Translations under genes and position numbers: made by a program
The notes under the pieces: model-generated
What the model saw: only the letters and a program-made list of their open reading frames with translations
Told to the model about the DNA's origin: nothing
Databases searched by the model: none
Shown: positions 11,934-17,210 of the stretch, piece by piece
Position numbering within the stretch: the first letter of the stretch is position 1
Layout: each line of letters starts with the position of its first letter
Source: Escherichia phage EC6
Strand: one strand, 5' to 3'
DNA: 64,000 nt
Sequence record: JX560968

Positions 11934-12010
11934 CTCTGTTTAGCTCAGATTGGTAGAGCGTTCCGTTTGGGGCGGTAAGGCCGGAGGTTCAAGTCCTCCA
12001 ACAGAGACCA
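11934..12010 (+). tRNA. tRNA-Pro (anticodon TGG)
   Basis: Hand fold: 7-bp acceptor CTCTGTT/AACAGAG, D-arm GCTC..GAGC, anticodon loop TTTGGGG, T-arm GGAGG-TTCAAGT-CCTCC, CCA encoded. Confidence 0.6.
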
Positions 12011-12017
12011 AATTAAT

Positions 12018-12095
12018 GTTCCAGTAGACAAAATGGTATAGTCACCACTCTTTCAAAGTGGATATCTGAGGGTTCAAATCCCTTCTGGAACGCCA
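12018..12095 (+). tRNA. tRNA-Glu (anticodon TTC)
   Basis: Acceptor GTTCCAG/CTGGAAC, anticodon stem CCACT/AGTGG with loop CTTTCAA, T-loop TTCAAAT, CCA encoded. Confidence 0.6.
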
Positions 12096-12180
12096 GTTTT
12101 GACAGAAGACCGATTACAGCAAACAACTTTTACTTTTCGCGCATAGAAAACATAAAAAGCTTGGTCTGGTCATTAAGAAT

Positions 12181-12257
12181 CGCGGGTATAGAGAAAGGGC
12201 GTCTCACATGTCTCATTAGCATGGTAACGGTTGGTTCGACTCCAACACCCGCCTCCA
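12181..12257 (+). tRNA. tRNA with CAT anticodon (Met, fMet or Ile2-type)
   Basis: T-arm GTTGG-TTCGACT-CCAAC, anticodon stem CATGT/GCATG with loop CTCATTA, D-stem GAGA/TCTC; position 1-72 appears unpaired (C-C). Confidence 0.5.
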
Positions 12258-12285
12258 AATTTACAGAAGACCGTTTACAGCAAAA
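12258..12285 (+). repeat. repeated tRNA-leader element AATTTACAGAAGACCGTTTACAGCAAAA (copy; others near 12101, 12658, 12739)
   Basis: An identical 26-28-nt sequence occurs at 12739-12766; diverged copies at 12101-12127 and 12658-12679; each is followed 35-100 nt later by a GGTCTGG motif (12163, 12323, 12726, 12871). Confidence 0.7.
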
Positions 12286-12342
12286 TTTAATGAAATTTTT
12301 AGCGGAAAAAATTGAAAGATACGGTCTGGTAATACTAAATAT

Positions 12343-12419
12343 GGTTAGGAAGCACATAAGGTATGTGCGGTCGCCTGTTAAGCGAATGGCACAGGGTTCG
12401 AATCCCTGACTAACCGCCA
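12343..12419 (+). tRNA. tRNA-Asn (anticodon GTT)
   Basis: Acceptor GGTTAGG/ACTAACC, anticodon loop CTGTTAA, T-arm CAGGG-TTCGAAT-CCCTG, CCA encoded. Confidence 0.6.
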
Positions 12420-12427
12420 AATTAAAT

Positions 12428-12515
12428 GTGTCGTTATCCCGTAGATGGTAGCGGTGGGGACTGTAAATCCCTTGTCATTGAGACTCGGTAGGTTCGACTC
12501 CTACACGGCACACCA
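12428..12515 (+). tRNA. tRNA-Tyr (anticodon GTA), long variable arm
   Basis: Acceptor GTGTCGT/ACGGCAC, anticodon stem GGGGA/TCCCT with loop CTGTAAA, long variable arm, T-arm GTAGG-TTCGACT-CCTAC, CCA encoded. Confidence 0.65.
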
Positions 12516-12520
12516 ATAAA

Positions 12521-12597
12521 GGCTATGTAGTTTAACTGGAGAAAATACTCCCCTGTCACGGGAGATGATGTGAGTTCAAGTCTCATCGTAGCCGCCA
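12521..12597 (+). tRNA. tRNA-Asp (anticodon GTC)
   Basis: Acceptor GGCTATG/CGTAGCC, anticodon stem CTCCC/GGGAG with loop CTGTCAC, T-loop TTCAAGT, CCA encoded. Confidence 0.6.
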
Positions 12598-12880
12598 ATT
12601 TTGAGAGGGCTATTTAGCCCCTCCCTTAAAGGGTTCTTACGAGTATCCTTTAAAGGAGCAGAAGACCAAATACAGCAAGTTACTTAAAATTTCAAGCCAA
12701 TTCAATTTTGAAAAATTTAAAACTTGGTCTGGCTCAACAAATTTACAGAAGACCGTTTACAGCAAAACTTAAACAATCTATTTCTCCGGTAAAGAAAAGG
12801 CGAAGGTTCGATTACTTCACTCGGCAGATGTCGAGTTGGTGTAATGGTAGCACTTAAGATGATAAACAACGGTCTGGTAA

Positions 12881-13020
12881 TTATCTTTGTAGATAAGTTA
12901 TTAAGCTTCCCTGTGAGTATGCGACCACAAAGGTGAAGGGTGGATTCTAGATTTAACCCGAAAAGACACATCGCTACAGACCTTAAGCAAGTCTGGGTAG
13001 CTTATCTACAAAGATAATTT
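12881..13020. repeat. 19-bp perfect inverted repeat (AATTATCTTTGTAGATAAG / CTTATCTACAAAGATAATT) enclosing ~100 nt
   Basis: The arms at about 12881-12900 and 13001-13020 are exact reverse complements; located between the leader element and tRNA-Lys. Confidence 0.75.
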
Positions 13021-13023
13021 AAT

Positions 13024-13099
13024 GGAAGTGTAGCAGAATGGTGATGCGGCAGACTTTTAATCTGACAGGCGATGGGTTCGAATCCCTCCACTTCTACCA
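13024..13099 (+). tRNA. tRNA-Lys (anticodon TTT)
   Basis: Acceptor GGAAGTG/CACTTCT (G1-U72 wobble), anticodon loop CTTTTAA, T-loop TTCGAAT with a weak T-stem, CCA encoded. Confidence 0.55.
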
Positions 13100-13103
13100 A
13101 TAT

Positions 13104-15830: not shown

Positions 15831-15838
15831 AGATTTAA

Positions 15839-15914
15839 AGGGGATTAGTTTACAAGGTTAAAACCTCGGTCTTTGAAATCGAAGAAGTTGGTTCAATTCC
15901 AACATCCCCCGCCA
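15839..15914 (+). tRNA. tRNA-Gln (anticodon TTG)
   Basis: Acceptor AGGGGAT/ATCCCCC with unpaired 1-72, D-stem GTTT/AAAC, anticodon loop CTTTGAA, T-arm GTTGG-TTCAATT-CCAAC, CCA encoded. Confidence 0.55.
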
Positions 15915-15916
15915 AT

Positions 15917-15995
15917 GCTCCATTACTCCAATTGGCAGAGAGGCCAGACTTAAAATCTGTGTTATGTATCGGTTCGAATCCGATATGGAGTACCA
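15917..15995 (+). tRNA. tRNA with anticodon TAA (Leu-type anticodon) on a class-I-length scaffold
   Basis: Acceptor GCTCCAT/ATGGAGT, anticodon loop CTTAAAA, 6-nt variable loop, perfect T-arm ATCGG-TTCGAAT-CCGAT, CCA encoded. Confidence 0.45.
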
Positions 15996-16000
15996 AATTT

Positions 16001-16076
16001 AGCGGTATAGCATAACTGGCAATGCAGCAGTCTCTGAAGCTGTCTTATTAAGGTTCAAATCCTTATGCCGCTGCCA
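16001..16076 (+). tRNA. tRNA-Gln (anticodon CTG)
   Basis: Acceptor AGCGGTA/TGCCGCT, D-stem GCAT/ATGC, anticodon loop CTCTGAA, T-arm TAAGG-TTCAAAT-CCTTA, CCA encoded. Confidence 0.55.
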
Positions 16077-16107
16077 CTTCTAAGGATTCTTACGAGAGTC
16101 CTTAAAT

Positions 16108-16183
16108 GTGGCCTTATCATAAATGGTAATGACCCATGCTGTGAACATGGTCTATACGGGTTCAAATCCCGTAGGTCACCCCA
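16108..16183 (+). tRNA. tRNA-His (anticodon GTG)
   Basis: Acceptor GTGGCCT/AGGTCAC, anticodon stem CCATG/CATGG with loop CTGTGAA, T-arm ACGGG-TTCAAAT-CCCGT, CCA encoded. Confidence 0.6.
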
Positions 16184-16188
16184 ATTTA

Positions 16189-16265
16189 TAGTCCAAGTAG
16201 CTTATATGGTTAAAGCGCGTGTCTGAAAAACATGAGAAGAGGGTTCAAATCCCACTGGACTACCA
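16189..16265 (+). tRNA. tRNA-Phe (anticodon GAA); ends approximate
   Basis: D-stem GCTT/AAGC, anticodon stem CGTGT/ACATG with loop CTGAAAA, T-loop TTCAAAT; the acceptor register is ambiguous by 1-2 nt. Confidence 0.5.
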
Positions 16266-16281
16266 ATTTCAAAGGTGCTTA

Positions 16282-17016
16282 ATGAAAGAGATGACAGAAC
16301 AAGGTAAGGAGATTTTTAATCTCTTAAAAACTGGTAAAGGGTTTTCTAACCCCCTTATTACTGGTGCAGCAGTTCTCGGTGGAACCGTAGCTGCCTCTAC
16401 ATCACTTGTAAGCTCTATTAGCTCTGTATCAGACCCTACAGTAAAGGATAAGCTTGTTGCTGCTGGACTTACAACAGTTCTGCTTAACAGCTTTACCACG
16501 AGTCTGACAAGCACTACATCAACTACCAAAACACTGACAGATTACGGTCAAAAGTCCATTGATGAGTTTTCATCACGTATGCAGGTAGCAAAAGGTTATT
16601 CTAATGTTATGGGTGCAGCAGGTGAACAAGTTGGCTGTACACCGTTTAGTGGTATTATGGGTGTTGCTACAGAATATGGTCAAAAAGCTATTGACACAAT
16701 TAACAGTGCACTAGACGGTGTTAATGATGTATTAAGTGACTTACAAGACGCTATTGACAAAGGTCTTGATACTATTTCTGATTTAGCTAACCAAGCTGTT
16801 AGTAAGATTAATGAAGGTATCTCGAAGATTACAGCTTATGCAGATGAAGTTGTGCAGATGATTGAAGAAGAAGCTGCCCTTATTGCAGAGTACCTTAAAA
16901 CGAATATCAATGGGTTCTTAGCAGGTATCTTACCAGACTGGTTTGATGATGCTTGTAAAACTGGTGTAATTGACACTATTGCAACACCAGAAATGAAGAG
17001 CGCATTACAGAAATAA
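16282..17016 (+). CDS. hypothetical protein (244 aa)
   Basis: ORF in the tRNA cluster; the ATG at 16282 with an AAAGG RBS is preferred over the upstream in-frame start, which overlaps tRNA-Phe. Ser/Thr-rich N-terminal region. Confidence 0.45.
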   Translation: MKEMTEQGKEIFNLLKTGKGFSNPLITGAAVLGGTVAASTSLVSSISSVSDPTVKDKLVAAGLTTVLLNSFTTSLTSTTSTTKTLTDYGQKSIDEFSSRMQVAKGYSNVMGAAGEQVGCTPFSGIMGVATEYGQKAIDTINSALDGVNDVLSDLQDAIDKGLDTISDLANQAVSKINEGISKITAYADEVVQMIEEEAALIAEYLKTNINGFLAGILPDWFDDACKTGVIDTIATPEMKSALQK

Positions 17017-17037
17017 TGGAAGATTAACCCTAAAAGG

Positions 17038-17130
17038 TAAGGGAGCAGTTTGCTAAACTGCCAGTAGCTGAGAAATCGGTGTACCAGTTCAAGTCTGGTA
17101 TCTTCCTCCAATTTGAATCCGTGACAGAAA
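17038..17130 (+). tRNA. tRNA-Ser (anticodon GCT), long variable arm
   Basis: Perfect acceptor GGAAGAT/ATCTTCC, 3-bp D-stem CCC/GGG, anticodon stem GCAGT/ACTGC with loop TTGCTAA, ~21-nt variable arm, T-arm ACCAG-TTCAAGT-CTGGT, CCA encoded. Confidence 0.65.
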
Positions 17131-17134
17131 TGGC

Positions 17135-17210
17135 TATGTACCTGTCTGCAAAACAGGTTTATAAGGGTTCGAGTCCCTTCGGATTCTCCAAGTTATTTTA
17201 CTCTCTCTCA
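17135..17210 (+). tRNA. tRNA-Cys (anticodon GCA)
   Basis: Acceptor GAATCCG/CGGATTC, anticodon stem CCTGT/ACAGG with loop CTGCAAA, T-arm AAGGG-TTCGAGT-CCCTT, CCA encoded. Confidence 0.6.

What the first reader, a model, noticed from the sequence alone, without database searches (positions are those of the whole stretch)
11934..17210. About 27 tRNA genes covering all 20 amino acids, interleaved with promoters, ORFs and repeats
Hand folding gives tRNAs for Pro, Glu, Met (two CAT types), Asn, Tyr, Asp, Lys (TTT and CTT), Ile, Trp, Ser (TGA and GCT), Ala, Gly, Thr, Val, Arg, Gln (TTG and CTG), His, Phe and Cys, plus three Leu-anticodon genes and unresolved tRNA-like elements. Two Lys isoacceptors and a Tyr gene stand out because host anticodon nucleases and tRNA-targeting defences often hit tRNA-Lys and tRNA-Tyr, and phage tRNA sets can replace cleaved host tRNAs. 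Three protein genes (15034-15830, 16282-17016) sit inside the array.
Basis: partly seen in the sequence, partly recalled or inferred. Interest (0 to 1): 0.45.

Follow-up and report, generated by a model that had tools for sequence, protein, structure and literature searches.

The report
Phage tRNA island with anti-tmRNA RNA
This is the well-known tRNA gene cluster of a Felix O1-like phage, but its unannotated gaps also hold Y-RNA-like molecules and a small RNA that is antisense to the host's ribosome-rescue RNA (tmRNA) and carries its own rescue-tag message.

Summary
ARAGORN finds 25 tRNA genes on the + strand between 11934 and 17190, and Rfam passes 23 of them. Two atypical tRNA-like genes, Arg-UCU without a D arm and Trp-CCA, bring the count to 27 and the coverage to 20 amino acids. 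The window is a Felixounavirus (94-96% identical to many records), so the array itself is already published and annotated.

1. The gene just upstream (10354-11769) has a Ro60 fold. Four hairpins with invariant ends follow it, and one (12744-12881) is a YrlA-type tRNA mimic with compensatory changes.
2. 13306-13466 has its own promoter and is a tmRNA-like RNA without any tRNA-like domain. It has a resume codon, a 10-codon tag ANDNVFLAVA plus stop, and covarying pseudoknots.
3. The 5' leader of that RNA is antisense to E. coli tmRNA nt 76-107 (nt 54-107 in relatives), which covers the host resume codon.

The tmRNA-like RNA occurs in 626 INPHARED phage records. It was unannotated or labelled a hypothetical protein in every record listed. 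ARAGORN and Rfam do not call it, and it was not found in the searchable literature.

Most likely function: the tRNAs sustain phage translation, and this RNA docks on host tmRNA to block or re-template tagging. Both functions are inferred, not shown.

The parts
10354..11769 (+). Ro60-fold (TROVE-like helical ring + vWA/MIDAS) protein gene, directly upstream of the array
   Evidence: Pfam DUF2828 + DUF7788. PHROG 850 'RNA-binding protein'. AF2 model pLDDT 88.5. Foldseek PDB top 12 hits are all Ro60/TROVE, best E 5e-8, TM 0.64. D279/S281/S283 invariant. The Bas63 homologue gp130 is reported as Ro60-like and as a counter to the ppl defence (bioRxiv 10.1101/2024.10.10.617714).
11788..11907 (+). Two tandem sigma-70-type promoters (TTGACA-17-TAATAT at 11788-11816; TTGACA-17-TAAAGT at 11879-11907) that open the array
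   Evidence: 10/12 matches each. Shared upstream A-tract repeat family D11/D12.
11934..12095 (+). tRNA-Pro(UGG) 11934-12010; tRNA-Glu(UUC) 12018-12095
   Evidence: ARAGORN. Rfam 57.5 and 56.8 bits.
12100..12173 (+). Y-like hairpin Y1: 5' motif GACAGAAGACCGATTACAGCAAA, variable loop, 3' motif TTGGTCTGGTCA
   Evidence: Repeat family D6/D20. Ends invariant and loop variable between phages.
12181..12257 (+). tRNA-Met(CAU), initiator-like C1.C72 mismatch, low-scoring
   Evidence: ARAGORN. Below the Rfam threshold. Cove 28.9 for the Felix O1 copy (PMC3185647).
12261..12332 (+). Y-like hairpin Y2
12343..12597 (+). tRNA-Asn(GUU) 12343-12419; tRNA-Tyr(GUA) 12428-12515; tRNA-Asp(GUC) 12521-12597
   Evidence: passes Asn and Asp; Tyr is called only by ARAGORN.
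12658..12733 (+). Y-like hairpin Y3
12744..12881 (+). Y4: YrlA-type Y RNA. The outer stem is made of the same 5'/3' motifs. It encloses a V hairpin, a T arm (12802-12818), a closed acceptor-like stem (12819-12836) and a D arm (12837-12853).
   Evidence: MFE folds of relatives. RNAalifold consensus of 8 sequences: 26 pairs, 3 compensatory pairs in the AS stem. The window copy has a G.A mismatch in the T stem.
12879..13019 (+). Long-stem cassette (22-nt arms, 95% complementary) enclosing a 97-nt insert; function unknown
   Evidence: I2. Conserved in relatives.
13024..13257 (+). tRNA-Lys(UUU) 13024-13099; tRNA-Met/Ile2-type(CAU) 13104-13180; tRNA-Ile(GAU) 13183-13257
13273..13301 (+). Promoter of the tmRNA-like RNA (TTGACA-17-TATAGT, 11/12, the best in the region)
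   Evidence: The same arrangement occurs in phage C1, Ackermannviridae and Erwinia phages.
13306..13344 (+). Leader of the tmRNA-like RNA, antisense to host tmRNA (E. coli ssrA nt 76-107: resume-codon region and codons 1-6)
   Evidence: blastn 22/27 to the minus strand of ssrA 81-106. RNAduplex -27.3 kcal/mol, z -2.0 for the window; z -4 to -5 for most relatives tested (two of ten were weak), and 36 of 44 duplexes start at ssrA nt 50-59, all ending at nt 102-130. The leader pairs with the host better than with its own ORF in 43/44. Alignment to the reverse complement of ssrA.
13345..13386 (+). Resume signal ATAAAT, then tag ORF GCA AAC GAC AAT GTT TTT CTG GCA GTA GCT (ANDNVFLAVA, 13351-13380), then TGA TAG
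   Evidence: All 127 matching sites in the loci held keep 10 codons plus stop. Codon 10 is always Ala and uses all four GCN codons; codon 11 is always a stop, using three different stop codons.
13366..13466 (+). Helix 5-like ORF hairpin, pseudoknot PK2 and pseudoknot PK3 (loop UGAUUAAUAA) of the tmRNA-like RNA
   Evidence: Covariation count on 44 sequences: 90.3% paired against at most 50% in slid controls; 20 pairs with double changes against 6-8.
13466..13500 (+). Hairpin separating the tmRNA-like RNA from the next tRNA
   Evidence: fold. In relatives it is replaced by a cassette with a different insert.
13506..13587 (+). Atypical tRNA-Arg(UCU): no D stem, 20-nt variable region, encoded CCA
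   Evidence: Rfam tRNA 31.2 bits. The anticodon stem covaries in phages inny and Iguana. A canonical tRNA-Arg(UCU) fills the slot in other relatives.
13597..13726 (+). Three conserved hairpins, function unknown
   Evidence: alifold on 13 sequences.
13731..13813 (+). Atypical tRNA-Trp(CCA): A1-U72, G73, CCA end, 5-bp anticodon stem plus a C.A pair (or a 9-nt loop), irregular D region
   Evidence: stem AACGG/CCGTT covaries with GTAAG/CTTAC. A canonical tRNA-Trp fills the same slot in typing phage 15. Not called by ARAGORN.
13827..13916 (+). tRNA-Ser(UGA); followed by CCT, not CCA
13917..14169 (+). Unannotated spacer with a 26-nt inverted repeat (14079-14104 / 14143-14168)
   Evidence: I1.
14170..14576 (+). 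tRNA-Leu(UAG), Lys(CUU), Ala(UGC), Gly(UCC), Thr(UGU)
14577..14671 (+). Structured 95-nt spacer
   Evidence: Sequence; not analysed further.
14672..15015 (+). tRNA-Val(UAC), Leu(CAA); 35-codon ORF 14842-14949 (PHROG 13848); tRNA-Arg(ACG) 14940-15015
15034..15830 (+). ORFs 15034-15276 (80 aa, PHROG 14202) and 15273-15830 (185 aa, DUF7338, hydrophobic N-terminal segment)
15839..16265 (+). tRNA-Gln(UUG), Leu(UAA), Gln(CUG), His(GUG), Phe(GAA)
16282..17016 (+). ORF, 244 aa, DUF7217
17018..17190 (+). tRNA-Ser(GCU), tRNA-Cys(GCA)
17353..17380 (+). Terminator-like hairpin plus T run that closes the island, ahead of the terminase genes

Best explanation
The region is the small-RNA island of a Felix O1-like myovirus (Felixounavirus). 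It is transcribed rightward from host-type promoters and ends at a terminator before the terminase genes. It has three layers.

(1) A near-complete translation kit. There are 25 canonical tRNAs (24 with encoded CCA) and two structurally odd ones (Arg-UCU, Trp-CCA). Together they can decode for all 20 amino acids. The most likely role is to keep the AT-rich phage genes translated late in infection. Protection against tRNA-targeting defences is a secondary possibility. Shown: the genes and their conservation. Inferred: the role.

(2) Four Y-RNA-like hairpins that share an invariant stem. One carries a permuted tRNA mimic of the YrlA type. They presumably bind the Ro60-fold protein encoded immediately upstream. 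Shown: fold, architecture, covariation, adjacency. Inferred: binding.

(3) A separately promoted RNA of about 160-200 nt that is a tmRNA without its tRNA-like half. Its 5' leader is antisense to the host tmRNA across pseudoknot 1, the resume codon and the first six tag codons. It is followed by its own resume signal, a 10-codon tag ORF (ANDNVFLAVA) and two pseudoknots. I propose that it anneals to host tmRNA, which supplies the alanyl tRNA-like domain and SmpB. Annealing masks the host tag template. At the least this blocks normal tagging. More speculatively, it makes the ribosome resume on the phage template, so that rescued proteins receive a phage-specified tag. Shown: complementarity, structure and the coding signature. 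Inferred: docking and template swap.
For: Identity of the region:
- 94-96% nucleotide identity over the whole 5.7 kb to Felixounavirus genomes with the same annotated tRNA order.
- Felix O1 itself matches at 94.6% over 12096-13023.
- The array is published (PMC3185647, PMC2674420, PMC12482277).

tRNAs.

Y RNAs:
- Ro60 fold of the upstream protein.
- Same strand, within 1.2 kb, as for bacterial YrlA, which lies within 4 kb on the same strand (PMC4201824).
- V-T-AS-D order, with a T loop UUCGAUU and a D loop carrying GG.
- Three compensatory pairs in the AS stem.
- Invariant stem ends with variable loops in the three short copies.

tmRNA-like RNA:
- Own promoter.
- Sub-threshold but specific hits of the Rfam tmRNA models on the resume/tag region.
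- The tag frame is kept in all 127 matching sites, with synonymous variation and three different stop codons. The Erwinia-phage copy reads ANDAQFLAVA using other synonymous codons.
- Covariation in the ORF hairpin, PK2 and PK3.
- The leader is antisense to ssrA. In one search the deletions relative to antisense ssrA fall between the pairing blocks; the leader's variable-length stretch lies between its first two blocks. The phage's own codons 3-6 differ from the host's, which prevents self-annealing.
- There is no tRNA-like domain to pair with. ARAGORN is negative. No extra T-arm/acceptor/CCA element exists in the 64 kb. Neighbouring elements differ between phages.
- Synthetic oligonucleotides complementary to tmRNA suppress its action in cell-free systems (PMC3384345).
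Against: - No expression, processing or binding data were available, so every function is inferred.
- Most tRNA genes of Bas63 were dispensable on laboratory hosts (bioRxiv 10.1101/2024.10.10.617714), so the translation-kit role is conditional.
- The Rfam YrlA model does not hit Y4, even in a relative with a perfect T stem. The window's Y4 has a T-stem mismatch.
- Erwinia relatives carry the tRNAs and the tmRNA-like RNA, and no gene for the Ro60-fold protein is annotated at the corresponding position.
- In the Felixounavirus type, leader-ssrA complementarity is shorter and statistically weak on its own (z -2.0, 1 of 30 shuffles). The case rests on the family as a whole.
- I selected the family with a pattern that fixes ATAAATGCAAACGA and TGATTAATAA, so conservation of those two motifs is not independent evidence.
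- The E. coli tmRNA was used as target.
- No known mechanism lets a ribosome resume on an RNA that is only base-paired to tmRNA at this position. Natural two-piece tmRNAs pair through the acceptor stem and helix 2.
Confidence: 0.7

Rival explanations
1. The array is mainly an anti-defence device. Phage tRNAs, especially Lys, Tyr and the odd-shaped Arg and Trp alleles, replace host tRNAs cut by anticodon nucleases or escape them through altered structure.
For: This is published for other phages (PMC11464382, PMC11555353, PMC10264068). The array carries Lys-UUU, Lys-CUU and Tyr. Canonical and grossly non-canonical alleles alternate at the Arg-UCU and Trp slots among close relatives, as expected under diversifying pressure. 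The neighbouring Ro60-like gene counters a defence system in Bas63 (bioRxiv 10.1101/2024.10.10.617714).
Against: The Sf14 study of the same array rejected nuclease escape from tRNA mutation patterns (PMC12482277). A full 20-amino-acid set is more than is needed to replace a few targets. Nothing in the sequence tests the idea.
Confidence: 0.3
2. The tmRNA-like RNA is purely an antisense inhibitor or decoy. It sequesters host tmRNA (or SmpB, S1 or RNase R), and its tag ORF is never translated. The ORF-like features persist because the hairpin and pseudoknots need them.
For: Antisense complementarity covers the host resume codon. Anti-tmRNA oligonucleotides inhibit tmRNA in vitro (PMC3384345). 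A TLD-only RNA of mycobacteriophage DS6A type inhibits tmRNA (PMC4131195, PMC11915505). No tRNA-like domain is attached.
Against: Codon 10 is always Ala through all four GCN codons. Codon 11 is always a stop through TAA, TAG and TGA. Leu7 uses CTG and TTG. The length is fixed at 10 codons, while the overlapping ATG frame varies (mostly 5, 7 or 9 codons; three copies are longer, up to 30). That pattern is the signature of translation, although part of it lies in a helix that also constrains it.
Confidence: 0.3
3. The tmRNA-like RNA is the coding piece of a true two-piece phage tmRNA. Its acceptor piece is encoded elsewhere in the phage genome, outside this window or in an unrecognised form.
For: Two-piece (permuted) tmRNAs exist (PMC11915505). 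Rfam's permuted-tmRNA model gives the best, still sub-threshold, score (32.4 bits). Relaxed ARAGORN reports 'tmRNAp ANDNVFLAVA'. The window covers only 64 of about 87 kb.
Against: That Rfam hit borrows the T arm of the neighbouring tRNA-Ile. The primary transcript starts a few bases before the leader, so it has no 5' acceptor strand. No conserved partner accompanies the RNA across phage families of 45-160 kb. The leader matches the antisense of host tmRNA, not the sense D-loop/helix 2.
Confidence: 0.07
4. The gap elements are decaying tRNA and tmRNA fragments and processing spacers without a function of their own.
For: Felix O1 tRNAs 5 and 20 were called pseudo-tRNAs (PMC3185647). The window's Y4 has a T-stem mismatch. 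Phage tRNA clusters are recombination and homing-endonuclease hot spots.
Against: Compensatory changes occur in Y4, in the Trp-like and Arg-like stems and in the pseudoknots. The tmRNA-like RNA has its own conserved promoter. It is spread over at least four unrelated phage groups in 626 records.
Confidence: 0.05

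Closest known systems
tRNA cluster of Felix O1 and other Ounavirinae (Felixounavirus, Mooglevirus, Kolesnikvirus)
   Same: Same genes in the same order at 84-96% nucleotide identity. Same flanks: the DUF2828 gene upstream and the terminase downstream.
   Different: Nothing essential. This genome carries the non-canonical alleles at the Arg-UCU and Trp slots. It lacks the HNH endonuclease inserts of some relatives.
tRNA regions of T4 and T5, which also hold small stable RNAs of unknown function (own knowledge)
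   Same: tRNA genes interleaved with non-tRNA stable RNAs and small ORFs, under early or middle host-type promoters.
   Different: No sequence relation was tested. As far as I know, T4 and T5 have no Ro60-like gene or tmRNA-like RNA there.
Bacterial Ro60 (Rsr) with YrlA/YrlB Y RNAs (PMC4201824); Thermus phage phiLo Ro60 with Yrl1/Yrl2 (PMC12135203)
   Same: A Ro60-fold protein with RNAs on the same strand next to it. One RNA has a permuted tRNA mimic (V, T, closed acceptor stem, D), and shorter stem-loop RNAs share the stem.
   Different: Pfam recognises the protein as DUF2828/DUF7788, not as TROVE. The Rfam YrlA model does not match. The conserved stem motif is ACAGAAGACCG...CGGUCUGGUA rather than GNCGAAN0-1G. 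The RNAs are embedded in a tRNA array.
tmRNA (ssrA), standard and two-piece forms
   Same: Upstream UA motif, GCA resume codon, 10-codon tag starting AN(D/E) and ending in Ala plus stop, ORF 3' half in a hairpin, H-type pseudoknots after the ORF.
   Different: No acceptor stem, T arm, CCA end or helix 2. Only two pseudoknots follow the ORF. A 5' leader that is the reverse complement of tmRNA nt 54-107. Found only in phages and prophages of Enterobacterales.
TLD-only tmRNA relic of mycobacteriophage DS6A, an inhibitor of tmRNA (PMC4131195, PMC11915505)
   Same: A phage-borne partial tmRNA thought to interfere with host trans-translation.
   Different: It is the opposite half: DS6A keeps the tRNA-like domain and lacks the tag, while this RNA keeps the tag and lacks the tRNA-like domain.
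Synthetic anti-ssrA/anti-tmRNA oligonucleotides used in cell-free translation and ribosome display (PMC3384345)
   Same: Antisense to tmRNA. The published oligonucleotide is described as complementary to tmRNA; that the usual anti-ssrA oligonucleotide targets the tag-coding region is my recollection.
   Different: This one is natural, is RNA, and is fused to a replacement tag template.

Membership tests
tRNA (Rfam RF00005 / ARAGORN cloverleaf) | Covariance-model score at or above the gathering score (29 bits) | tested here: met
   23 genes score 33.2-63.4 bits. 13506-13584 scores 31.2 bits in a local search. Met 12181, Tyr 12428 and the Trp-like 13731 do not reach the threshold.
tRNA (Rfam RF00005 / ARAGORN cloverleaf) | Cloverleaf with a 7-nt anticodon loop, T arm, acceptor stem and 3' CCA or a site for it | tested here: met
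   ARAGORN genes, and 24 of them are followed by encoded CCA. Not met in full by the Arg-UCU allele (no D stem) or by the Trp allele (irregular D region, extra C.A pair).
Felixounavirus tRNA cluster | Nucleotide identity and gene order shared with type genomes | tested here: met
tmRNA (RF00023, RF04321; ARAGORN) | tRNA-like domain: acceptor stem with G3:U70, T arm, 3' CCA | tested here: not met
   None is attached. The primary transcript starts at the leader. ARAGORN with default settings is negative. No spare T-arm/acceptor/CCA element exists in the window. The adjacent G3:U70 tRNA-like element is an Arg-UCU allele: the G:U is not conserved and it co-occurs in only 12 of 130 loci.
tmRNA (RF00023, RF04321; ARAGORN) | Covariance-model gathering score | tested here: not met
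   tmRNA_permuted 32.4 bits against 47; tmRNA 16 bits against 47. Relatives score 21.7-27.3 bits.
tmRNA (RF00023, RF04321; ARAGORN) | Tag reading frame: resume codon GCA without SD/AUG, short ORF ending in Ala-Ala-type residues, in-frame stop | tested here: met
tmRNA (RF00023, RF04321; ARAGORN) | Pseudoknots flanking the ORF | tested here: met
   PK2 and PK3 are supported by covariation. A PK1-like fold is weaker, and that sequence doubles as the antisense leader.
tmRNA (RF00023, RF04321; ARAGORN) | Alanylation, SmpB binding, trans-translation activity | not testable with these tools
   Needs biochemistry.
YrlA-type Y RNA (RF02553; PMC4201824) | Covariance-model match | tested here: not met
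   No hit at E <= 10 on the window copy or on the Mordin copy.
YrlA-type Y RNA (RF02553; PMC4201824) | 5'/3' stem enclosing V, T, closed acceptor-like and D stem-loops in that order, with tRNA-like T and D loops | tested here: met
YrlA-type Y RNA (RF02553; PMC4201824) | GNCGAAN0-1G motif near the 5' end | tested here: inconclusive
   GGCGAAGG is present at 12799-12806, but it overlaps the T stem and is about 55 nt from the 5' end. In some relatives it reads GAGAAGG.
YrlA-type Y RNA (RF02553; PMC4201824) | Encoded within 4 kb of, and on the same strand as, a Ro60 orthologue | tested here: met
   Y1-Y4 lie 330-1110 nt downstream of the Ro60-fold gene.
YrlA-type Y RNA (RF02553; PMC4201824) | Binding to Ro60 | not testable with these tools
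   Needs co-purification.
Ro60 / TROVE proteins | Pfam TROVE domain | tested here: not met
   Only DUF2828 and DUF7788 are hit. Sequence searches of PDB are negative.
Ro60 / TROVE proteins | Helical-repeat ring plus C-terminal vWA domain with a MIDAS motif (fold) | tested here: met
   Foldseek top 12 hits are all Ro60, E 5e-8 to 1.5e-6, TM up to 0.64. DxSxS is invariant.

The most novel reading that the evidence does not exclude
The RNA at 13306-13500 represents a phage-specific class found in 626 sequenced phages of Enterobacterales. It hijacks the host's ribosome-rescue system. Its leader anneals to host tmRNA over pseudoknot 1, the resume codon and the first tag codons. The host molecule then delivers alanine, SmpB and ribosome entry, while the phage RNA supplies the template. 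Stalled-ribosome products would end in a phage-chosen tag (ANDNVFLAVA, ANDDVVLMAA, ANEEMYLAVA and others) instead of the host degron. This would be a natural trans-assembled, chimeric host-virus tmRNA.
Probability: 0.3. Interest if true: 0.9.

Novelty: new variant of a known kind. Interest (0 to 1): 0.55.

Why it matters
The tRNA array by itself adds nothing new. It is a textbook feature of Felix O1-like phages.

The gaps matter for two reasons.

First, they give concrete candidates (12100-12881) for the Y RNAs that the Bas63 study only guessed might hide among the annotated tRNAs. That makes the Ro60-like anti-defence protein of a genetically tractable coliphage directly testable.

Second, a tmRNA-derived RNA that has lost the tRNA half and gained an antisense arm against host tmRNA would be a new way for a virus to interfere with, or re-program, bacterial ribosome rescue. 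It is present in model and therapeutic phages (Felix O1, Kuttervirus, and Klebsiella and E. coli siphophages). Standard annotation misses it.

It could also explain old observations that phage growth depends on or is affected by tmRNA (own knowledge). It would also give a natural design for switching tmRNA tags.

Tried and rejected
- Canonical or permuted tmRNA. ARAGORN is negative. The Rfam scores are sub-threshold, and the permuted-model hit borrows the T arm of tRNA-Ile.
- The G3:U70 D-armless tRNA-like (13506-13587) as the missing alanine-accepting domain. Rejected for three reasons: the homologue in phage inny has G3-C70 and its own promoter; the anticodon loop UCU is conserved with a covarying stem; and it accompanies the tag in only 12 of 130 loci.
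- An upstream TLD-like mini-helix in Salmonella phage SenASZ3. It is not conserved in Serratia phage IME250, where a protein gene precedes the promoter.
- The 5' AGUUUUCG as a homologue of the tmRNA D loop. Replaced by the antisense reading once the E. coli ssrA sequence was compared.
- 'Met' 12181-12257 flanked by the repeat motifs as the YrlA-like unit. Rejected: each 5' motif pairs with the 3' motif that follows it, so Y1 and Y2 flank this tRNA rather than enclose it.
- Link between the Ro60-like gene and the tmRNA-like RNA. None: tblastn finds the gene only in the Felixounavirus-type loci held at that point. The Mooglevirus loci fetched later have it annotated, and the Erwinia relative has no such gene annotated.
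- Rfam families for the siphophage cassettes: none.
- Literature searches for the tag peptides, phage tmRNA and anti-tmRNA: nothing that describes this RNA. The supplements of the 2025 tmRNA database paper that are held as text contain no phage entries.
- The Dictyostelium class I RNA hits on the Y-like hairpins are treated as chance.

Full report
**What the window is**

The 5.7 kb around the finding is 94-96% identical over its full length to dozens of Felixounavirus genomes (Felix O1-like myoviruses of E. coli, Salmonella and Shigella). 112 records cover at least 80% of it. Annotated relatives show the same order:
- a 471-aa DUF2828 gene;
- then tRNA-Pro, Glu, Met, Asn, Tyr, Asp and so on to Ser and Cys;
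- then a small ORF and the large terminase.

The cluster has been published since the Felix O1 and wV8 genome papers: 22-23 tRNAs, two of them called 'pseudo' (PMC3185647, PMC2674420). A dedicated analysis exists for the Mooglevirus Sf14: 26 tRNAs for 19 amino acids (PMC12482277).

**Check of the observation**

ARAGORN tRNA genes in the 64-kb window. All are on the + strand between 11934 and 17190. Rfam's tRNA model passes 23 at its gathering score. They cover 19 amino acids; Trp is missing.

All but tRNA-Ser(UGA) are followed by an encoded CCA.

Two more tRNA-like genes lie in the gap between Ile and Ser.
- 13506-13587 has a good acceptor stem, T arm and CCA. Its anticodon stem-loop carries UCU. 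It has no D stem and a 20-nt variable region. Rfam gives 31.2 bits when the region is searched alone. Homologues in phages inny and Iguana keep the loop and covary in the stem.
- 13731-13813 has A1-U72, G73, CCA and a T arm. Its anticodon loop contains CCA and is closed by a conserved C.A pair. Its D region is irregular. The stem AACGG/CCGTT is GTAAG/CTTAC in Mooglevirus.

Close relatives carry perfectly canonical tRNA-Arg(UCU) and tRNA-Trp(CCA) at these same two positions. These are therefore alternative alleles of decoding tRNAs.

Other features of the description also hold.
- The three best promoter matches of the region (11788, 11879, 13273) share an upstream A-rich repeat.
- A terminator-like hairpin follows at 17353.
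- The ORFs at 15034-15276, 15273-15830 and 16282-17016 belong to conserved phage families (PHROG 14202, DUF7338, DUF7217), as does a 35-codon ORF at 14842-14949.

**The upstream gene and the 'repeats'**

The 471-aa protein encoded at 10354-11769 hits only DUF2828 and DUF7788 in Pfam and nothing in PDB by sequence. An AlphaFold model built on 37 homologues (pLDDT 88.5) finds Ro60 structures as its 12 best PDB matches. These include Xenopus and human Ro60, Deinococcus Rsr and Thermus phage phiLo Ro60 (E 5e-8 to 1.5e-6). vWA domains follow them in the list. The MIDAS residues are invariant.

This agrees with the PhageMaP preprint on the Felixounavirus Bas63. There gp130 is called Ro60-like, counters the ppl defence, and 'some tRNA genes are possibly Y RNAs' (bioRxiv 10.1101/2024.10.10.617714).

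In the window the four-copy repeat CAGAAGACCGnTTACAGCAA (12103, 12264, 12659, 12746) is each time followed 40-125 nt later by (C/T)GGTCTGG. The two motifs pair. Between phages the motifs are invariant while the enclosed loops of the three short copies vary freely.

The fourth copy (12744-12881) encloses, in this order:
- a variable hairpin;
- a T arm, GAAGG-UUCGAUU-CCUUC;
- a closed stem;
- a D arm, GUGU-AAUGGUA-GCAC.

This V-T-AS-D order is that of bacterial YrlA Y RNAs, which lie within 4 kb of Ro60 on the same strand (PMC4201824). RNAalifold on eight distinct sequences recovers this structure, with three compensatory pairs in the closed stem.

The Rfam YrlA model does not match. The element therefore works like a YrlA but is not a member of that curated family. 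The window's copy has one T-stem mismatch. Binding to the Ro60-fold protein is inferred from adjacency only.

**The tmRNA-like RNA**

A blastn of the Ile-Ser gap showed that 13342-13466 is conserved at 71-81% identity in unrelated phages, where nothing is annotated: Klebsiella and E. coli siphophages and Ackermannviridae.

The conserved piece reads ATAAAT GCA AAC GAC AAT GTT TTT CTG GCA GTA GCT TGA TAG. That is a tmRNA-style resume signal and the tag ANDNVFLAVA (E. coli: ANDENYALAA). The best promoter of the region lies just upstream.

A pattern scan of IMG/VR returned at least 120 loci. All 127 matching sites in the loci held keep a 10-codon frame AN(D/E)xxx(L/R/K)xxA plus stop. Codon 10 is always Ala through all four GCN codons, and codon 11 is a stop through TAA, TAG or TGA. 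The overlapping ATG frame varies in length. An Erwinia phage outside the pattern reads ANDAQFLAVA with further synonymous codons.

On 44 diverse sequences a hand-drawn structure was tested: the ORF hairpin, pseudoknot PK2 and pseudoknot PK3. It is 90.3% paired against at most 50% when the partners are slid. It has 20 pairs with changes on both sides against 6-8 in the controls.

The tRNA-like half is missing.
- ARAGORN finds no tmRNA.
- Rfam tmRNA models stay far below threshold, and their hit borrows the T arm of tRNA-Ile.
- The transcript starts a few bases before the conserved AGTTTTCG.
- No spare T-arm/acceptor/CCA element exists in the window.
- The neighbours differ from phage to phage.

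The RNA occurs in 626 of 50,697 INPHARED records. It occurs in only 4 of 185,579 species-representative bacterial genomes, all Enterobacterales. I read those four as probable prophages, without checking. It is therefore not any bacterium's own tmRNA.

**The leader is antisense to host tmRNA**

Comparing the RNA with E. coli ssrA (fetched) gave as best match the minus strand. Window 13307-13333 (TAGTTTTCGTTGCGTAGCGTCTATTTT) matches the complement of ssrA 81-106 at 22 of 27 positions. That is the stretch AAAAUAGUC-GCA-AAC-GAC-GAA-AAC-UA, holding the resume codon.

All 44 leaders were tested against ssrA with RNAduplex.
- The predicted duplexes cluster on one stretch of ssrA: 36 of 44 start at nt 50-59, and all end at nt 102-130.
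- The mean energy is -41 kcal/mol.
- For phage C1, Carvaje and other members the energy is 10-19 kcal/mol better than shuffled leaders (z -3.2 to -5.1; none or one of 30 shuffles as good).
- Two of the ten leaders tested against shuffles were not significant (L013 z -0.5, L105 z -1.4).
- For the shorter Felixounavirus leader it is -27.3 kcal/mol (z -2.0, 1 of 30).

An alignment shows the leaders as condensed copies of the reverse complement of ssrA 52-110. The deletions fall between the pairing blocks UAGUUUUCGU, GCGACU, UUGCGG, CUUUUUA and CUGACC.

The leaders pair far better with host tmRNA than with their own ORF region (-34 against -20 kcal/mol; 43 of 44). The phage tags differ from the host tag exactly at the codons the leader targets.

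Synthetic oligonucleotides complementary to tmRNA are used to switch tmRNA off in cell-free systems (PMC3384345). Inhibition by such a duplex is therefore plausible.

**Mechanism proposed**

Shown:
- a conserved, promoter-driven, structured RNA;
- a translated-looking tag frame;
- no tRNA-like domain;
- an arm complementary to the host tmRNA template region.

Inferred: the RNA anneals to host tmRNA, opens pseudoknot 1 and buries the host resume codon.
- The minimal consequence is inhibition of host tagging.
- The stronger consequence, suggested by the coding signature, is that the ribosome resumes on the phage template. It would be brought in by host tmRNA-SmpB and would add a phage-specified tag whose last residues (LAVA, LMAA, LAAA) differ from the ClpX-recognised LAA.

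My estimates are about 0.6 that the interaction with host tmRNA is functional and about 0.3 that the template is swapped.

Weak points:
- there are no expression data;
- host tmRNAs other than E. coli were not available;
- the family was collected with a pattern that fixes two motifs;
- the Felixounavirus leader alone is only marginally significant.

**Role of the tRNAs**

Nothing here discriminates between the hypotheses. For this array the published evidence favours support of late translation in an infection that destroys host DNA (PMC12482277). It also indicates conditional dispensability (bioRxiv 10.1101/2024.10.10.617714).

The anti-nuclease idea rests on analogy with T5 and other phages (PMC11464382, PMC11555353, PMC10264068). 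The alternation of canonical and deformed Arg and Trp alleles among near-identical phages fits diversifying pressure on tRNA shape.

**Verdict**

Taken alone it would score about 0.1.

The region nevertheless contains two unannotated RNA systems. The Y-like RNAs are a new, sequence-divergent example of a known kind, and a preprint had anticipated them only as a guess. The TLD-less, antisense-armed tmRNA-like RNA is a new variant of a known kind. I could not find it in Rfam 15, in ARAGORN output, in record annotations or in the searchable literature. The overall interest of 0.55 reflects that second layer and its still purely computational support.

Noticed in passing
L004-L126 (e.g. L010 5340-5700 minus strand; L009; L014; L095): In siphophage and prophage contigs the tmRNA-like RNA sits among repeated cassettes: CACAAC-A-GGTAAGAGCATTG, then a 40-100 nt variable insert (some with T arms), then CAGTGCTCTTTCC-GTTGTG. 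The stem is 13 bp with a U.U at the third pair. No Rfam family matches them.
   Followed up: partly
L002 about 4700-4760, L092, L101, L129 520-560; L008 and L123: A 26-nt motif, CCCTTATGGGGCTTGGCTTAAATGCA, occurs at the tip of a cassette in siphophage contigs. It also occurs, inside a different stem, right after the tmRNA-like RNA in some Felixounavirus genomes. The window has a plain hairpin (13466-13500) there instead.
   Followed up: no
window 13506-13587; L127 3002-3083; L128 2999-3077: The D-armless tRNA-Arg(UCU) is shared at about 86% identity with unrelated large phages (inny, Iguana, jumbo phage E9.1). In inny it has its own promoter. It alternates with a canonical tRNA-Arg(UCU) among close Felixounavirus relatives.
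   Followed up: partly
window 12181-12257: This tRNA-Met(CAU) has a C1.C72 mismatch like an initiator, but it lacks the three G-C pairs in the anticodon stem. It fails the Rfam threshold and lies exactly between Y-like hairpins Y1 and Y2. The second CAU tRNA (13104-13180) could be an Ile2 (lysidine) type; this was not resolved.
   Followed up: no
window 12103-12125, 12264-12286, 12746-12768; L130 5747-5864: The 5' motif of the Y-like RNAs contains UUACAGCAA, the core of the conserved 11-nt motif of Dictyostelium class I RNAs. Rfam RF01414 gives 14.7-19.7 bits against a threshold of 41.5. This is probably chance.
   Followed up: no
window 13649-13664 and 16222-16237: A hairpin in the Arg-Trp spacer is 15/16 complementary to the anticodon arm of the phage's own tRNA-Phe. 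About 0.4 such pairs are expected by chance in 5.7 kb.
   Followed up: no
window 13827-13916: tRNA-Ser(UGA) is followed by CCT, not CCA. It is the only one of the 25 without an encoded CCA, and it has the lowest Rfam score (33.2 bits).
   Followed up: no
L001 3334-3762; L002 4440-4787; L129 886-1290: Relatives carry extra ORFs at different places inside the array. The L002 one is annotated as an HNH endonuclease; the L001 and L129 ones are hypothetical proteins. The window has none. The array looks like an insertion hot spot.
   Followed up: no
L136 3640-7180 (Erwinia phage vEam_W_25): The Kolesnikvirus relative has 27 ARAGORN tRNA calls, none of them annotated in the record, and the tmRNA-like RNA. 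No gene for the Ro60-fold protein is annotated at the corresponding position, and I saw no full copy of the Y-like 5' motif when reading the sequence.
   Followed up: partly
L005 1740-1865 (Salmonella phage SenASZ3): Downstream of the tmRNA-like RNA in this Kuttervirus lies a tRNA-like element of about 125 nt. It has an acceptor stem, a long internal helix, a T arm and CCA. ARAGORN does not call it.
   Followed up: no
L002 (PV390658.1): Phage vB_EcoM_P54 is a Felixounavirus by sequence (95.6% identity over the region), but its record files it under Straboviridae/Tequatrovirus. None of its tRNA genes is annotated.
   Followed up: no
window 12879-13019, 13597-13726, 13917-14169, 14577-14671: Four further conserved, structured, unannotated spacers (long inverted repeats and hairpins) remain unexplained.
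   Followed up: partly
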